This document shows, in pieces, positions 39,625 through 47,910 of a DNA stretch of 64,000 nt (the stretch's first letter is position 1; every line of letters starts with the position of its first letter). The position numbers were made by a program, and so were the translations under genes. This DNA comes from the human T2T-CHM13v2.0 reference genome, Homo sapiens: assembly GCF_009914755.1 (NCBI RefSeq), contig NC_060933.1. The stretch is one strand, 5' to 3'. The notes under the pieces were generated by a model, which had not been told where the DNA came from, did not search any database, and saw nothing but the letters and a program-made list of their open reading frames with translations.

Positions 39625-40533
39625 TTTAGAGAGCACAACTCCAAAGCATCTTTTATTAATATAGAAAGGTCATATTTAGCAAAAGACACAAGGCAAGGAA
39701 GTGTCAGGCCTGAGGTCTGAGCTGTGCTGAGGGAGAAAGAGGCTCTGGACAAGTGCTGGGAAGGGCTGAGTGGTGGGGGCCACAGAAAGTTCCAGTGGGC
39801 AACACTGTCTGCAGGTCATGGGTGGGACTCACGGGGACCTCGCTGCTAACTCTTGTTGCGTTGGCGGGGTGGGGTGGGGAGGGGGGTCCTTAGTGCTGCC
39901 ACCTGCAGTGAGAACCGCCCCTTGGTTCCTGGAGGGCACCCATCAAGGGACACAGGACAGGAAGCCCAGGATGGTTAGTGCAACTAGGGATGAAGGCCAG
40001 GGAGAAGCAGGTGCTCTGAAGTCCAGACACAGAGGCCTAGGAGCTTCCTGTTAAGTGTGGGCGTTCCGCTCTGTCTCTACCAGGCACTCTGACTAGGGAT
40101 GGATGATACCTCTCTTCAGGCGCTCCGCGGCGCTCTTGCTGCCAGCATAGGTGGGCCGGATCCCTTTGCCCATCTCCCCTGTGACCAACAGCAGTTCCGT
40201 GTAGGTGCTCTGGGAGCCCTGGGCACCAGGTGGTTTCATGGCCTGCATACAACCGACGGTAGGCGGTCCAAAGTCTTTAAACAGCGGTCTGCAAGGGGCA
40301 GTGGCTCCCGGCCCTGAGCCCGACAGCGACGGGACGCTTCCTGTAGGGACCGGAGTGCCTGGCCCAGGGGTGCTGAAGCCGGGGGTGCTGCTGGGGGCAG
40401 GGGTGGTAGGTTTGTAGGACATCCCCAACTCCTGGGCGCTGGGGAAGCCAGCAGGCTGCTCTTCGGGGGTTGGCTGCGGGACCGCTCAGCAACGATCTGA
40501 TTGGCAAGCGGGCTGCACGCCCCCTGGTAAATC
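39625..40533 (-). pseudogene. Processed CDK2AP2 (DOC-1R) pseudogene, CDK2AP2P family
   Basis: ORF 40422-40093 [38 protein letters not shown] matches CDK2AP2, with a frameshifting deletion near the C-terminus; intronless; AATAAA at 39652-39657; short A tail; TSD TATATTAAACTTTTT (39610-39624 / 40534-40548). Confidence 0.96.
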
Positions 40534-40594
40534 TATATTAAACTTTTTAACTGCAATTTGTATTAATCTAAATACAGTTCAAATATTCTCCATG

Positions 40595-40800
40595 AAAATT
40601 TCACATTTGAGTTGAGACATCCTAAAATGTAAAATACACAATGGATTTCAAAGATTTCATATGAAAAAAGAATGCAAACTATCTCTAATAATTTTTATAT
40701 TGATTATATATTGACCCAATATTTTGGATATATATTGGGTTAAATAAAATATACAATTTAAAAAAATTATGCTACATTTTTGTTAAAAAATTTAAATAAA
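40595..40800. mobile_element. MER33-like hAT-Charlie fragment
   Basis: TGTAAAATACACAATGGATTTCAAAGA..AATAATTTTTATATTGATTA..ATATTGGGTTAAATAAAATATA. Confidence 0.7.
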
Positions 40801-41060
40801 CTATATATGAAATTATTTCTTGGGATAGAAAAGGGGACATGATTAAATATTTACTTAAACTTTTTTCAAAAACATATCTTTAAAACAGATTTTCAAACAC
40901 AACAAAAGTATTTTAATTTTGAATAGGTAAAATAAACTTATTCCTGCTGAAATTCAATCATGGCATGATTTCCTTTGTATGCATTTGAGGACTCTGTTTA
41001 TAACCCAGATAAAAACATAAAACTTTTGAAACTCTTCTAAGAATGTCTAACACAAATTAC

Positions 41061-44900: not shown

Positions 44901-45872
44901 AAAAGACCTCTACAATGAAAATTACAAAACACTGCTGAAAGAAATCATAGATGGAGCCAAGCACGTTGGCGCATGCCTATAATCCCAGCTACTCGGGAAA
45001 CTGAGGCAGGAGAATCGCTTGAACCCGGGAGGCAGAAGTTGTAGTGAGCCGAGATCACACCATTGCACTCCCACCTCAGCGACAAGAGCGAAACTACCTC
45101 TGAAAAAAAAAAAAAAAAAAAACAAGAAAGAAAAGAAATCATAGATGACACAAACAAATGGAAACACATCCCCATGCTCATGGATGGGTAGAACCAATAT
45201 TGTGAAAATTACCATTCTGTTAAAGGCAATCTACGAATTCAATGCAATCCCCATCTGAATACCACCATCATCCCTCACAGAATTACAAAAACAATTCTAA
45301 AATTAATATGGAACCAAAAGAATGCCATGTAGCCAAACCAAGGCTAAGCAAAAAGAACAAGCCTGGAGGCATCACACTACTTGATTTCAAACTGTACAAT
45401 AAGGCCATAGTTACCAGAACAGCATGGTACTGGTTTAAAAATAGGCACATAGACCAATGGAACAGAAGAGAGAACTCAGAAATTAACCCAAATACTTACA
45501 GCCAACTGATCTTTGACAAAGCAAACAAAAACATAAAGTGGGGAAAGGACACCCTTTTCAACACATGAAGTTGGGATAATTGGCGAGCCACATGTAGGGG
45601 AATAAAACTGGATTCTCATCTCTCACCTTATACAAAAATCTACTCAAGATGGATTAAGAACTTAAACCTAATTCCTGAACTGTAAAAATTCTAGAAGATA
45701 ACACTGGATAAACCCTTCTAGACATTGGCATAGGCAAGGATTTCATGACCAAGAACCCAAATGCAAATGCAATAAAAACAAAGATAAATAGCTGGGACTT
45801 AATTAAACTAAAGAGCTTTTGCATGGCAAAGGGAACAGTCAGCAGAGTAAATAGACAAATCGCAGAGTGGGA
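41915..45872 (+). mobile_element. Older primate L1 (L1PB-like), ORF1 3' half through most of ORF2, truncated at both ends
   Basis: Degenerate ORF1, EN (ICCLQETHL, IIVGDF) and RT homology; ends abruptly at CAGAGTGGGA, where the telomeric array begins. Confidence 0.93.
44954..45131 (+). mobile_element. 5'-truncated Alu (right arm only) nested in L1
   Basis: Right monomer and A tail; 16-bp TSD AAAGAAATCATAGATG (44938-44953 / 45132-45147). Confidence 0.93.
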
Positions 45873-46132
45873 CCCCTGACCCTGACCCCTGACCCTGACC
45901 CCTAACCACTGACCCTGACCCCTAACCCCTGACACAAACCCTAACCACTATCCCTAACCCCAACCCTCACCCTAACCCAACCCTAACCCCTAATCCCTAA
46001 CCCCTAACATCTCTTAAACCCTAACTCTAAACGTTGACTCCTAACCCCTAACTCTGACCCCAATCCCTATCTCCAACCTCTAACCCTAAACTTAACCCCT
46101 AACCCCTAACCCTAACACCAAGCTTAACCCTA
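45873..46132 (-). repeat. Interstitial degenerate telomeric array (CCCTAA/CCCTGA/CCCCAA/CCCTCA)
   Basis: ~260 bp of 6-7 nt units; TTAGGG-type strand is the minus strand. Confidence 0.97.
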
Positions 46133-46877
46133 GGTTCATTACTAAGTTTGTATTGACTATGTCAATGTTGATTATTATGATGGCTGTCTTTGGACTGCAC
46201 GGCAGCGAGGGGATTGCGGATCTTATATTAATATTTTTGTATTGAGGCAGCGCATTAGCATTACAGGTGCTTGTTACATGAGCAATGGGGGTGTCATATT
46301 TTGGGTGTCATGTCTGCATTAGGAATGCCGCATTTGTCTTCCGAGGCTGCGGTGTGGATCTCGCACTGCGGCCGCCTCGCCTTGGCTGGGGAGAACCTCG
46401 GTGGGCAGGATTCAGAGGGGCTTTTGGTTTCCCGTTTTCCACACTGAACCCTTCTAACTGGTCTCTGACCCTGATTATTCAGGGCTGCAAACAGGAAGGA
46501 TTTTATTCACCGTTGATGCGGCCCCGAGTTGTCCCAAAGCGAGGCAGTGCCCCCAAGGTCTGTGCTGAGGAGAACGCTGCTCTGCCTTCGCGGTGTCCCC
46601 CGGGTGTGTGCTGAGCAGAACGCAGCTCCGCCCTCGCGGTACCCCCGGCCCGCCCGCCCGGGTCTGTGCTGAGGCGAACACTGCTCCGCCTTCGCTGTAT
46701 CTCCGAAGTCTGTGCAGAGGAGAACTCAGCTCCGCCCTCGCGATGCTCTCCCGGTCTGTGCTGAGGAGAAGGCAGCTCCGCCCTAGCAAAGGCAGAGCGC
46801 CCTTCGCAAAGGCAGAGAGGCGCAGAGCGCCGGCGCAGGCGCGGAGGGGGCGCAGGCGCAGAGGGGGCGCAGAGCAG
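46133..46877. repeat. TAR1 subtelomeric repeat with CpG-rich minisatellite units
   Basis: GCATTAGCATTACAGGTGCTTGTTACATGAGCAATGGGGG..; five GTCTGTGCTGAGGAGAAC..CTCCGCC units (46557-46790); GGCGCAGAG/GGCGCAGGCGC 29-mer remnants (46811-46875). Confidence 0.93.
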
Positions 46878-47910
46878 GGCAGGTGGCACCAAGAGTGGGT
46901 CCCTCAGGCCTCGAGCGCACGCATTCCAGCGGCCACCCAGACCATGCTCCGCCGACTGGGCGCCCAAGCTGCAGTCGCCCTCTGTGTGCAGGCAGCAGCT
47001 GCCTGGCAACCCCCGAGCTCGCTCGCGCTGTCAGCATCGCAGAACCAGGGCCAGGTGTCCCAGTGGCTGCGGCCAAGCCAGGCATTCTGACCGGCGGCGG
47101 CGGCGGCTGCACAGGAGCGAGAACTGAGAAGCCGCCGCTCAACCCCACACGGGGTGACTGCTGAGGGCCCATACCAACGGCCCCGATCTCCCTCAGGTGG
47201 AGGACTGGGCGGGAGGCACAGCCTGGGGGCCCTCAGGCTGGGCGCGCTGGCGATCCCGAGGCCGACCAGGCCATGCACCTCCAGCCCGCCTGGGCACCCA
47301 AGCTGCAGCCGCCTTCTGTGTGCAGGCAGCAACCTCCAGGCAACTCCCGAGTCCGCCCTCACTTCCCACATCTCGGAACGAGGGCCAGATGTCCCTGTGG
47401 CTGCGGCCAAGCCAGGCGGTCTGCCCTGCAGCAGCTGCACGGGGGCGGGAACCGGCCCTCAGCCCTATCCCCCGTGGCTGCAGAGGGCCCTTGGCTAGAG
47501 GTGTAGAGCTCTGGCATAGGAGGAGCCGGGCGGGGGCAGGGCCTGGCGGGCTCTCAGGCCAGGGGCACTTGCGATCCAGATGCCGCCCAGGCCATGCTCA
47601 CCACCTGGGCGCCCAGCTACAGGCGCCAGGCAACTCCCAAGCTGGCTGGCGCGCCCAGCCTCGCAGACCCGGGCCTGGATGTCGCCGTGGCTGCGGCCAA
47701 GCCAGGCGGTCTGCTCGGCGGCGGCTGCACCGGGGCAGGAACCGACCCTCAGCCCCATCCCCGGTGGCTGCGGACGGCCCCTGGAGCGGCCCCGACGTCT
47801 CTTCGGAGGAGAAGAGGGGCGGGAGTCACGGCCAGGCAGGCCCTCAGGCGGGAAGGGATGCGCGCCTGCGATTCCGGGACGTACCGCGCCAGCCCAGGAG
47901 AACCCGGAAG
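46540..47910. promoter_or_regulatory. CpG-island-like region (TAR1 minisatellites plus GC-rich unit array)
   Basis: High GC and CpG density against an AT-rich background; GC boxes (GGGCGG); activity not shown. Confidence 0.7.
46878..47860 (+). repeat. Degenerate tandem array of ~3 GC-rich ~300-340 bp units
   Basis: Recurring CTCAGGC..CCATGC..GTGGCTGCGGCCAAGCCAGGC..GCTGCAC motifs at ~47064, ~47397 and ~47687. Confidence 0.8.

What the first reader, a model, noticed from the sequence alone, without database searches (positions are those of the whole stretch)
39625..47900. Candidate chimeric gene: fossil telomere (TERRA-type) promoter spliced to a PTGER4 exon and a CDK2AP2 retrocopy
Seen: minus-strand signals line up into a 3-exon unit. 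(1) The CpG island/TAR1 has a donor ACG|GTGAAT at 46511/46510. (2) PTGER4's own exon-2 acceptor (CTCTTCTGCCATCTCCAG|, exon starts 41438) pairs with a donor CAG|GTAATT at 41061/41060, just past the end of PTGER4 homology, giving a 378-nt exon. (3) A weak acceptor TTTACCAG| (exon starts 40523) sits at the 5' edge of the CDK2AP2 retrocopy, which supplies AATAAA (39652-39657). Intron 1 would remove the telomeric array and the L1. Established: TAR1 CpG-rich 29/37-bp repeats act as TERRA promoters firing toward the telomere, here the minus strand. I recall an annotated PTGER4P2-CDK2AP2P2 read-through pseudogene, so the transcript itself is probably known. Inference: its promoter is an exapted chromosome-end TERRA promoter, so a new gene was assembled from three unrelated pieces.
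Basis: partly seen in the sequence, partly recalled or inferred. Interest (0 to 1): 0.85.

Follow-up and report, generated by a model that had tools for sequence, protein, structure and literature searches.

The report
Fossil-telomere promoter feeding a patchwork pseudogene
This stretch is one of ten near-identical copies of a patchwork pseudogene whose first exon can come from a relic chromosome-end (TERRA-type) promoter; sister copies already carry that annotation and the kind was recently described, so it is a clean example rather than a new discovery.

Summary
Three of its four splice sites are exactly the exon boundaries RefSeq gives at two paralogues: donor 46511|46510, acceptor 41439|41438, donor 41061|41060 (NR_024496.1 at chr9:80.34 Mb; XM_047445504.1 at chr9:80.19 Mb). 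The third acceptor is 40622|40621, not 40523. The annotated 3' end is 38032 (AATAAA 38051-38046), not the retrocopy's AATAAA.

Window 46883-46276 aligns at 83% to the reference Xq TERRA promoter. It has a 29-bp-like tract, a 37-bp tract and pre-tel, with no 61-bp repeat. A 259-bp degenerate (TTAGGG)n follows in the chromosome-end orientation. The curated 5' end maps to 46813 and a divergent lncRNA start to 46887.

The module exists in 10 copies (94-99% identical), and all splice dinucleotides are kept in 10 of 10. Only 2 of 11 annotated models start in the TERRA-like block; 5 start antisense in the L1 fragment. This copy has no annotated transcript. The 109-aa CDK2AP2-like ORF is truncated and not distinguishable from neutral.

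A 2025 preprint already reports 106 interstitial TERRA-like promoters, 47 flanked by genes. Verdict: real, partly supported, a known kind. The pre-tel splice donor, conserved at true chromosome ends and reused by an unrelated pseudogene, is the one less-described point.

The parts
46812..46883 (-). 29-bp-repeat-like tract: 2-3 degenerate units with two GCGCCTGCGC motifs. It lies between the mapped divergent 5' ends (46813 minus strand, 46887 plus strand) and is the putative core of the TERRA-like promoter.
   Evidence: blastn to Xq 29-bp array, 73-78% over 64-86 bp; alignment A2; motif counts; TSS mapping
46557..46811 (-). 37-bp-repeat-type tract of the TERRA-like promoter. TRF reads it as period 46 (about 5 units) plus period-20 units.
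   Evidence: TRF; part of the 623-bp, 83% alignment to the Xq reference promoter
46276..46556 (-). Pre-tel region, carrying the 5' splice site ACG|GTGAAT at 46511|46510.
   Evidence: Alignment to Xq and 9p chromosome ends, donor identical in both; the 31-mer occurs at 93 genomic sites against 0 in the control
46511..46813 (-). Equivalent of exon 1 of NR_024496.1 (303 nt). Exon 1 of XM_047445504.1 corresponds to 46613-46511.
46140..46275 (-). Spacer of about 135 bp between pre-tel and the telomere-like array, absent from the Xq and 9p ends.
   Evidence: alignment A2
45874..46132 (-). Degenerate interstitial telomeric array, (TTAGGG)n on the minus strand: 259 bp, 15 perfect hexamers. It is removed as part of intron 1.
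   Evidence: TRF; matches to the chr9p telomere
41911..45872 (+). L1 fragment running from the ORF1 C-terminal part into ORF2, sense on the + strand and so antisense to the transcript. It forms most of intron 1.
   Evidence: Pfam Tnp_22_dsRBD at 42164-42385(+) and RVT_1 at 44470-44895(+); RefSeq masked blocks
44444..44601 (-). Equivalent of the alternative first exon of NR_135010.1, antisense inside L1 ORF2 (donor AAG|GTATGT). Five of 11 annotated models start here (44485-44601).
41072..41902 (-). Unprocessed PTGER4 fragment: about the last 21 nt of exon 1, intron 1, and the first 367 nt of exon 2. It is 78% identical to chr5:40936874-40937749, with indels and an in-frame TAA.
41061..41438 (-). 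Exon 2 (378 nt). The acceptor aligns with the polypyrimidine-AG of the parent PTGER4 gene. The donor CAG|GTAATT lies 11 nt beyond the end of PTGER4 homology.
40533..41071 (-). AT-rich spacer, including an interspersed repeat (masked 40620-40822). It supplies donor 2 and the annotated acceptor 3 (40622|40621).
38032..40621 (-). Equivalent of exon 3 of NR_135010.1 and XM_047445504.1: spacer tail, the CDK2AP2 retrocopy, then 1.6 kb of flank with an Alu-like repeat (39183-39495).
39620..40532 (-). Processed CDK2AP2 retrocopy: four parental exons joined, A-tail 39627-39620, AATAAA 39657-39652. It is flanked by a target-site duplication of 13-15 bp (40548-40534 and 39624-39610).
   Evidence: exon-by-exon match to chr11:67501175-67502868
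40093..40422 (-). 109-codon CDK2AP2-like ORF ending at a premature TAG that is shared by all 10 copies.
   Evidence: (Pfam CDK2AP, profile positions 156-192 of 209 only)
38046..38051 (-). AATAAA 14 nt upstream of the RefSeq-equivalent 3' end at 38032.
46887..50967 (+). Equivalent of the divergent single-exon lncRNA LOC100132249 (NR_135128.1). Its first ~1 kb (46891-47900) is a CpG-rich module that is not TERRA-promoter sequence.

Best explanation
Window 38.0-47.9 kb (minus strand) is one of ten paralogous copies of a segmental-duplication module. It was carried from an old subtelomere into pericentromeric chr9 and into chr13, 14, 15, 20 and 21.

Read 5' to 3', the module holds:
- a TERRA-like CpG promoter of the 29-37-pre-tel type, without the 61-bp repeat;
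- a decayed telomere array;
- an antisense L1 fragment;
- a genomic piece of PTGER4 (exon-1 tail, intron 1, start of exon 2);
- AT-rich DNA;
- a CDK2AP2 processed retrocopy.

Shown at paralogues by RefSeq models: transcription can begin at or inside the 37-bp tract, just downstream of the 29-bp-like core. The pre-tel region supplies a ready-made 5' splice site. A 5,072-nt intron then removes the rest of pre-tel, the telomere array and the L1, and joins the strong PTGER4 exon-2 acceptor. The 378-nt exon either splices on to 40621 or reads through, and the RNA ends about 1.6 kb past the retrocopy.

Inferred:
- This copy does the same, because all of its signals are identical.
- The 29-bp-like tract acts as a bidirectional core, with a FAM201-like lncRNA running the other way.
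- The product is a non-coding transcribed pseudogene, not a protein-coding gene.
- Unspliced read-through would instead give an interstitial TERRA-type RNA.
For: - Exon mapping: NR_024496.1 maps to 46813-46511 then 41438 onward. NR_135010.1 exon 2 maps to 41438-41061 and exon 3 from 40621. XM_047445504.1 maps to 46613-46511 / 41438-41061 / 40621-38035, with its CDS at 40422-40093.
- The junction contexts in the window are identical to the transcribed paralogue. GT/AG is kept in 10 of 10 copies at all four RefSeq sites.
- Promoter homology: Xq reference promoter to window 46883-46276, 83% over 623 bp; chr9p end 81.8% over 631 bp; same orientation relative to the telomere repeats. This meets the preprint's own blastn criterion for an interstitial promoter.
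- The pre-tel donor is identical in Xq and 9p. The 31-mer occurs at 93 sites against 0 in the control, and I read GT as kept in 89 of the 93.
- The same donor is used by the unrelated FLJ43315 transcript NR_033856.1.
- Literature: 106 interstitial TERRA-like promoters, enriched at 9p11.2 and 9q21.11, with 47 having genes that start within 100 bp (preprint 10.1101/2025.05.15.654290, sections 7 and 8 read). Most TERRA, including ITS-derived TERRA, starts in the 37-bp repeats and has CAGE tags (PMC12242772, section 26 read).
- Non-coding status: the premature TAG is shared by 10 of 10 copies. There are 16 synonymous and 26 non-synonymous distinct codon variants, omega about 0.58, one-sided p = 0.061. 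Exon identities equal intron identities.
Against: - No RNA data could be consulted, and RefSeq places no transcript on this copy: only the CDK2AP2P1 and PTGER4P1 pseudogene blocks and plus-strand Gnomon pseudogenes.
- Only 2 of 11 annotated models at the ten copies start in the TERRA-like block. Five start antisense in the L1 and four elsewhere.
- The 29-bp-like tract here is short and degenerate, 2-3 units against 9 perfect units in Xq. The curated transcribed paralogue has a larger tract: 471 bp against 380 bp, and 60 CpGs against 36.
- RefSeq labels 46620-46949 a 'silencer' ('silent region_19921'), and a paralogue carries the same kind of label. I did not trace the source.
- Exon-1-equivalent sequence diverges faster among copies than intron 1 does (95.3% against 97.3% for chr13). 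That fits CpG decay in a methylated germline state.
- That 41438 is PTGER4's true exon-2 acceptor rests on alignment plus signal inspection. No chr5 exon table was available.
Confidence: 0.72

Rival explanations
1. This particular copy is transcriptionally silent. Its signals are kept only because it is 98-99% identical to active paralogues, and all cDNA and RNA-seq support belongs to the chr9:80.19 and 80.34 Mb copies.
For: No RefSeq transcript on this copy, while 2 of the 5 chr9 copies have TERRA-block-initiated models. The 29-bp-like tract is shorter and has fewer CpGs than in the curated transcribed copy. RefSeq places a 'silencer' label on 46620-46949.
Against: All splice signals, the polyA signal and the ORF are intact and identical in context. 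Annotation in 98-99% identical duplications depends on where multi-mapping evidence was placed. One RNA-seq paper lists CDK2AP2P1 as a differentially expressed gene (passages seen), though read assignment among paralogues is uncertain.
Confidence: 0.4
2. The TERRA-like block is a minor start. The unit's main promoter is antisense inside the L1 ORF2 fragment (window 44485-44601) or lies elsewhere, and the PTGER4 acceptor simply traps whatever is transcribed upstream.
For: Five of 11 models start at 44485-44601. One starts at 42089 and one 8 kb upstream at 54894, and both of those splice onto 41438. A candidate maternally methylated region (ICR_578) lies 2.2-2.5 kb from the gene's 5' end in GRCh38, which by my arithmetic falls near the L1-antisense exon (table row seen).
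Against: One curated (BestRefSeq) transcript and one Gnomon mRNA do start in the TERRA-like block and use its donor. For chr13, 20 and 21 only gene extents were available, not exon tables or isoforms.
Confidence: 0.45
3. Promoter activity comes from the neighbouring 1-kb CpG-rich FAM201-like module (46891-47900), not from the TERRA 29/37-bp repeats. The minus-strand exon would then be divergent by-product transcription of that island.
For: Most of the CpG island (1,010 of 1,390 bp) is not TERRA-promoter sequence. That module is duplicated widely (69 candidates), and FAM201B overlaps one copy. Twenty-five of 93 pre-tel sites have a divergent gene.
Against: The two mapped 5' ends (46813 and 46887) bracket exactly the 29-bp-like tract. 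FLJ43315 starts in the same TERRA-like exon at a locus where that CpG-rich module lies elsewhere and inverted. Published reporter assays assign activity to the 29-bp repeats (as cited in the preprint and in PMC6600276; passages seen).
Confidence: 0.2
4. It is a young protein-coding gene that makes a 109-aa CDK2AP2-like protein, as Gnomon labels six paralogues.
For: The ORF is open and the same length in 10 of 10 copies. Omega is about 0.58. Six paralogous loci carry the Gnomon label 'CDK2AP2-like, protein_coding'.
Against: A premature stop and a short deletion remove the C-terminal end of the CDK2AP domain; the Pfam match covers profile positions 156-192 of 209 only. The excess of synonymous change is not significant (p = 0.061 one-sided) and NG86 ignores CpG and transition bias. 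Exon and intron identities are equal. The ATG lies about 200 nt into exon 3, behind about 600-900 nt of upstream exon sequence.
Confidence: 0.06

Closest known systems
Interstitial TERRA-like promoters flanked by genes (Santagostino et al., bioRxiv 10.1101/2025.05.15.654290; abstract and sections 5, 7-10 and 12 read)
   Same: A 29-37-pre-tel block without the 61-bp repeat, next to an interstitial telomeric array (their 'type K', 55 loci). It sits in segmental duplications enriched at 9p11.2 and 9q21.11, and pseudogene or ncRNA genes start within 100 bp on one or both sides.
   Different: Their main text names no PTGER4 or CDK2AP2 gene and does not discuss splicing ('ptger4' 0 and 'cdk2ap2' 0 occurrences; 'splic' occurs only in an abbreviation and a minimap2 setting). 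The exon-level design (pre-tel donor skipping the telomere array) comes from my mapping.
PTGER4P2-CDK2AP2P2 read-through transcribed pseudogene (NR_024496.1, NR_135010.1) and LOC124906875 (XM_047445504.1)
   Same: 98-99% identical paralogues, with identical splice-site contexts, the same ORF and the same polyA signal.
   Different: Those loci carry transcript models and this window does not. The curated copy has five extra 17-bp units in the 29-bp-like tract.
Subtelomeric 61-29-37 TERRA promoters (Xq reference chrX:154255311-154256622; 9p end)
   Same: Homologous 29-bp, 37-bp and pre-tel segments, orientation toward (TTAGGG)n, CpG island, and an identical pre-tel GT donor.
   Different: There is no 61-bp (CTCF-site) repeats and only 2-3 degenerate 29-bp units. 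A 135-bp spacer is present, the array is 259 bp and decayed, and the annotated product splices the telomeric repeats out, so it is not TERRA.
FLJ43315 (asparagine synthetase pseudogene, NR_033856.1)
   Same: Its first exon (311 nt) is the same TERRA-like block and ends at the same pre-tel donor. A telomere-like array and the L1 fragment follow.
   Different: The downstream exons are unrelated to PTGER4 or CDK2AP2, and the L1 is cut at a different point and joined to other sequence.
Chimeric transcribed pseudogenes and retrocopies that recruit foreign promoters and exons (general class; recalled, not searched)
   Same: A retrocopy gains upstream exons and a CpG promoter from unrelated neighbouring DNA.
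   Different: Here the donor of the promoter and first exon is a relic chromosome end, and the assembly was then amplified tenfold by segmental duplication.

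Membership tests
Interstitial TERRA-like promoter (Santagostino et al. 2025 definition) | blastn homology to the Xq TERRA promoter chrX:154255311-154256622 | tested here: met
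   Xq to window 46883-46276: 83.1% over 623 bp, E = 0. The criterion was read.
Interstitial TERRA-like promoter (Santagostino et al. 2025 definition) | 29-bp repeat (the core promoter) present; accepted identity range 55-100% | tested here: met
   46883-46812 aligns to the 29-bp array at 73-78%, but there are only 2-3 degenerate units, with two GCGCCTGCGC motifs against 10 in Xq.
Interstitial TERRA-like promoter (Santagostino et al. 2025 definition) | 37-bp repeats and pre-tel, followed by telomeric repeats in the TERRA direction | tested here: met
   Alignment A2; TRF arrays at 46557-46784 and (CCCTAA)n at 45874-46132 on the + strand
Interstitial TERRA-like promoter (Santagostino et al. 2025 definition) | 61-bp CTCF-site repeat (present in canonical subtelomeric promoters, absent in their type K) | tested here: not met
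   No window match to the Xq 61-bp array (L008:2348-2569) in the blastn. This is consistent with type K, not with the canonical 61-29-37 type.
Interstitial TERRA-like promoter (Santagostino et al. 2025 definition) | Listed in their Supplemental Table S3 / S4 | not testable with these tools
Active promoter | Transcription start sites on this copy | not testable with these tools
   There are no reads, CAGE or chromatin data. There is only indirect evidence: RefSeq 5' ends at two paralogues map to 46813 and 46613.
TERRA / iTERRA RNA | Transcript contains UUAGGG repeats | tested here: not met
   In the annotated spliced models, intron 1 (46510-41439) removes the whole array at 46132-45874. An unspliced read-through RNA could qualify, but that was not testable.
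PTGER4P-CDK2AP2P read-through transcribed pseudogene | Same exon-intron signals as NR_024496.1 / NR_135010.1 | tested here: met
   The 31-nt contexts of six boundaries are identical apart from one exonic base. Signals are kept in 10 of 10 copies.
PTGER4P-CDK2AP2P read-through transcribed pseudogene | Evidence of transcription from this locus | not testable with these tools
   No RNA data. RefSeq has no transcript here.
CDK2AP family protein-coding gene | Complete CDK2AP domain and purifying selection | tested here: not met
   The Pfam PF09806 match covers profile positions 156-192 of 209 only (E = 1.1e-8). A premature TAG is shared by 10 of 10 copies. Omega is about 0.58, p = 0.061.
TAR1 (telomere-associated repeat 1; RepeatMasker name, recalled) | Match to the TAR1 library consensus | not testable with these tools
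   No repeat library was on hand. Homology to two real chromosome ends and 31-mer matches at 14 further terminal sites stand in for it.

The most novel reading that the evidence does not exclude
The pre-tel segment of TERRA promoters carries a conserved, functional 5' splice site. This makes every chromosome-end promoter a portable 'promoter + first exon + donor' cassette.

Once internalised by duplication, the cassette has been captured repeatedly by unrelated downstream sequence. On chr9 the exact donor is used at 3 loci belonging to 2 unrelated gene structures. At true telomeres the same unpaired donor sits about 240 nt before the repeats. There it could recruit U1 snRNP to nascent TERRA, affecting its chromatin retention, 3' processing or stability.

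I found no mention of a splice donor in TERRA promoters in the held literature (searches; the preprint's main text).
Probability: 0.2. Interest if true: 0.65.

Novelty: new member of a known kind. Interest (0 to 1): 0.3.

Why it matters
It is a clean, base-resolved example of how a relic chromosome end can donate a CpG promoter, a first exon and a splice donor to whatever lies downstream. It also shows how segmental duplication then multiplies such a patchwork tenfold.

Practically, it shows that RefSeq annotates the same module inconsistently across its ten copies: as a transcribed pseudogene, as a 'protein-coding CDK2AP2-like' gene, or as separate dead pseudogenes.

RNA assigned to PTGER4P2-CDK2AP2P2, and methylation calls at it, are confounded by 98-99% identical paralogues. 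Primers or probes for subtelomeric TERRA promoters can also report on these interstitial loci.

The conserved pre-tel donor gives a testable handle on TERRA biogenesis.

Tried and rejected
None of the 6 chr9 models with exon tables uses it, and it lies within the first 10 nt of the retrocopy.
- Retrocopy AATAAA as the transcript's end: not supported by the 8 mapped model ends.
- L1 5'UTR antisense promoter as the alternative start: rejected. The fragment lacks the 5'UTR, beginning in the ORF1 C-terminal part, and the exon lies antisense to the RT region.
- L1 3' transduction as the origin of the PTGER4 piece: rejected. The L1 is on the opposite strand, truncated at both ends, and recurs with the same two ends at the chr10p subtelomere.
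- Protein-coding reading: tested and not supported.
- Constraint on exons: I compared exon and intron identity across copies and found no difference.
- The TSS statement of Nergadze et al. 2009: the paper is not held, so I used later papers that cite it.
- Literature searches for the pseudogene names found only gene-list mentions: 6 papers, passages seen in 3.
- The script stopped with an error after printing its mapping, because one position fell in a BLAST gap. I re-derived that position from a MAFFT alignment.
- I did not trace the source of RefSeq's 'silent region' labels. I did not check the second pre-tel donor (about 88 nt downstream) that three chr9 lncRNAs use; by eye the window has no GT at the corresponding place.
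- Exon tables exist only for chr9. For chr13, 14, 15, 20 and 21, model starts and ends are gene extents only.

Full report
**What is in the sequence.**
- ACG|GTGAAT at 46511|46510;
- a long polypyrimidine tract ending CCAG| before 41438;
- CAG|GTAATT at 41061|41060;
- TTTACCAG| before 40523;
- AATAAA at 39657-39652.

The GC-rich block 46511-47900 is a CpG island (GC 0.71, CpG o/e 0.67). A decayed telomere array lies at 46132-45874. It is 259 bp long, with 15 perfect TTAGGG on the minus strand and none of the complement. Below it is an L1 fragment.

**Annotation at paralogues.**
The window is chr9:41974001-42038000. RefSeq gives it only the pseudogene blocks CDK2AP2P1 and PTGER4P1 and two plus-strand Gnomon pseudogenes. 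That locus is collinear with window 36281-53227 at 96.5-98.8% identity.

Mapping its exons onto the window:
- NR_024496.1 exon 1 maps to 46813-46511. Its second exon begins at 41438 and retains intron 2.
- NR_135010.1 maps to 44601-44444 / 41438-41061 / 40621-38032.

A fifth chr9 copy (80.19 Mb) carries the Gnomon mRNA XM_047445504.1. It maps to 46613-46511 / 41438-41061 / 40621-38035, with its CDS at 40422-40093.

The other two assignments fail:
- The third acceptor is 40622|40621 (TTTTACATTTTAG|GATG).
- None of the 8 model 3' ends I mapped lies at the retrocopy's polyA site. The curated end, 38032, follows an AATAAA at 38051-38046.

**The promoter block.**
The preprint of Santagostino et al. 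names chrX:154255311-154256622 as the reference Xq TERRA promoter. I fetched it.
- Window 46883-46276 aligns to it at 83% over 623 bp, and to the chr9p end at 81.8% over 631 bp. Both are in the orientation that points at the telomere repeats.
- The window has a short 29-bp-like tract (about 46883-46812; 2-3 degenerate units), a 37-bp-type tract (46811-46557) and pre-tel (46556-276).
- It also has a 135-bp spacer that the Xq and 9p ends lack, and no 61-bp repeat.
- This is the preprint's 'type K' organisation (55 loci) and meets its blastn criterion.
- The curated minus-strand 5' end maps to 46813. The 5' end of the divergent curated lncRNA LOC100132249 maps to 46887. The two starts bracket the 29-bp-like tract.
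- Published work places most TERRA starts, including ITS-derived ones, in the 37-bp repeats (PMC12242772, section 26). It assigns core activity and NRF1 sites to the 29-bp repeats (PMC6600276, passages).
- The remaining 1 kb of the island (46891-47900) is not TERRA-promoter sequence. It is a separately and widely duplicated CpG-rich module (69 candidates), and FAM201B overlaps one copy.

**The other pieces.**
- The L1 fragment (41911-45872) is sense on the plus strand: ORF1 dsRBD-like domain at 42164-42385(+) and RVT_1 at 44470-44895(+). It is therefore antisense to the transcript and truncated at both ends. The alternative first exon 44601-44444 lies antisense to its RT region.
- PTGER4 homology spans 41902-41072 (78% to chr5:40936874-40937749). 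It covers about 21 nt of exon 1 with its GT, intron 1, and 367 nt of exon 2. The acceptor is aligned to the parent's polypyrimidine-AG. No chr5 exon table was available, so 'PTGER4's own acceptor' remains an inference.
- Donor 2 lies 11 nt beyond PTGER4 homology, in AT-rich DNA that also supplies acceptor 3.
- The CDK2AP2 element is a processed retrocopy. Four parental exons are joined, with an A-tail and a 13-15-bp target-site duplication.
- The unit is therefore built from at least five unrelated pieces, not three.

**Copy number and conservation.**
The whole module occurs ten times in CHM13: chr9 five times, plus chr13, 14, 15, 20 and 21. Identity to the window is 94.3-98.9%. GT/AG is kept at all four RefSeq splice sites in 10 of 10 copies.

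Across the ten copies I found 11 transcript or gene models:
- 2 start in the TERRA-like block;
- 5 start antisense in the L1 (44485-44601);
- 1 starts at 42089;
- 1 starts 8 kb upstream (54894) and splices onto 41438;
- 1 starts at 41431;
- 1 starts at 40446.

For the non-chr9 copies only gene extents were available. The PTGER4 acceptor thus behaves as an exon trap for several upstream starts, and the TERRA-like promoter is one of them.

**Coding potential.**
- The 109-aa ORF matches only profile positions 156-192 of 209 of Pfam CDK2AP.
- It ends at a premature TAG next to a short deletion, both shared by 10 of 10 copies.
- Among the copies there are 16 synonymous and 26 non-synonymous distinct codon variants. 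NG86 omega is about 0.58, with one-sided binomial p = 0.061. NG86 does not correct for CpG or transition bias.
- Exon identities equal intron identities.

I read it as a non-coding transcribed pseudogene. Gnomon's 'protein-coding CDK2AP2-like' labels at six paralogues look like ORF-based calls.

**The pre-tel donor in general.**
The 31-mer around the donor occurs at 93 places with at most 3 mismatches, against 0 for the reversed control.
- These include 14 sites within a few kb of chromosome ends (1q, 2p, 5q, 6q, 7p, 8p, 9q, 10q, 11q, 13q, 16q, 17q, 20p, 21q).
- Xq and 9p carry it too.
- I read GT as kept in 89 of the 93 sites.
- Sites with more than 3 mismatches were not seen, so this is a partial census.
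- Fourteen of the 93 sites have a same-strand RefSeq gene starting within 600 bp upstream, and 25 of 93 have a divergent one.

On chr9, where exon tables exist, 6 of 17 sites have such a same-strand transcript, and 3 loci splice exactly at this donor: NR_024496.1, XM_047445504.1 and NR_033856.1. NR_033856.1 is the unrelated asparagine-synthetase pseudogene transcript FLJ43315, and its downstream exons differ. Three other chr9 lncRNAs use a donor about 88 nt further on.

**What is already known.**
The preprint 10.1101/2025.05.15.654290 (abstract and sections 5, 7-10 and 12 read) reports 106 intrachromosomal TERRA-like promoters in CHM13.
- They are enriched at 9p11.2 and 9q21.11.
- 105 of 106 lie in segmental duplications.
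- 97 of 106 lack the 61-bp repeat.
- 47 loci have pseudogene or ncRNA genes starting within 100 bp, in either or both orientations.
- ITS loci were shown to be transcribed.

Its main text does not name PTGER4 or CDK2AP2 and does not discuss splicing. The locus and gene lists are in supplements I could not open.

Papers naming PTGER4P2-CDK2AP2P2, PTGER4P1 or CDK2AP2P1 only list them in expression or methylation tables. Three searches found nothing on a splice donor in TERRA promoters.

**Verdict.**
The TERRA-type origin of the first exon and its promoter is well supported by homology and by paralogue annotation. However:
- transcription of this copy is untested;
- the TERRA-like start is a minority among annotated starts;
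- the product is not shown to be a functional gene;
- the kind is already described.

I rate it a new (unannotated) member of a known kind, interest about 0.3. The less-described point is the conserved pre-tel 5' splice site that turns a chromosome-end promoter into a portable first-exon cassette.

Noticed in passing
window 46877-47547 and 51137-51804; also 46897-47849 internally: A CpG-rich unit of about 670 bp is present twice as a direct repeat 4.2 kb apart (about 90% identical), with weaker internal periodicity. The 46900-47950 block has 69 candidate copies genome-wide, mostly near TERRA-like blocks. FAM201B overlaps one copy. Gnomon calls such copies 'translation initiation factor IF-2-like'.
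   Followed up: partly
L018 (chr10:11300-15210) against window 41914-45872; also chr18:10425-10761 and three further chr18 hits: The same L1 fragment, with the same two end points, lies about 11 kb from the chr10p end (93.9% identical), but no telomere-like array or TERRA-like block follows it there. The fragment therefore behaves as a discrete subtelomeric duplicon module.
   Followed up: partly
window 46818-46872; L005 (chr9:80343520-80343680): The 17-bp unit of the 29-bp-like tract varies in number between paralogues. The promoter block is 340-471 bp long and holds 28-60 CpGs. The curated transcribed copy has the most: five extra units and CpG o/e 0.95.
   Followed up: partly
window 46620-46949; paralogue chr9:40801218-40801427: RefSeq functional-element rows label the 37-bp/29-bp block a 'silencer' ('silent region_19921' and 'silent region_19925'). 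hESC enhancer rows cover 40791-41792 and 47652-48220. I did not trace the sources.
   Followed up: no
paralogue PTGER4P2-CDK2AP2P2 (GRCh38 chr9:62844696-62844981); window equivalent about 44300-44590: The 'imprintome' paper (PMC9665137, table row seen) lists a candidate maternally methylated region, ICR_578, assigned to CDK2AP2P2 at distance 0. By my arithmetic it falls near the L1-antisense alternative first exon. Another candidate (ICR_570) is 12 kb from PTGER4P1.
   Followed up: no
window 54894-54820 and 54393-53980 (equivalents of XM_054364435.1 exons 1-2 at chr9:40.79 Mb): At one paralogue a Gnomon mRNA starts 8 kb beyond the TERRA-like block and splices straight onto the PTGER4 acceptor (41438 equivalent), skipping about 12.5 kb.
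   Followed up: no
chr9:42710301, 77579809, 79966493 (outside the window): Three chr9 lncRNAs that start in other TERRA-like blocks use a second donor about 88 nt downstream of the pre-tel donor. By eye the window has no GT at the corresponding place.
   Followed up: no
chr7:10607240-10608013: A second, independent CDK2AP2 retrocopy, 78% identical to the window's copy.
   Followed up: no
window 46180-46201 and 46860-47506 (+): The Gnomon pseudogene LOC124906849 joins a 22-nt exon in the pre-tel/ITS spacer to the CpG-rich module on the plus strand, crossing the TERRA-like block in antisense. I saw no counterpart at the other copies.
   Followed up: no
chr9:41937931-41937961 (36 kb before the window start) and 15 other chr9 sites: chr9 alone holds 17 of the 93 pre-tel 31-mer sites, clustered at 40-48 Mb and 77-80 Mb. 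This agrees with the 9p11.2/9q21.11 enrichment stated in the preprint.
   Followed up: partly
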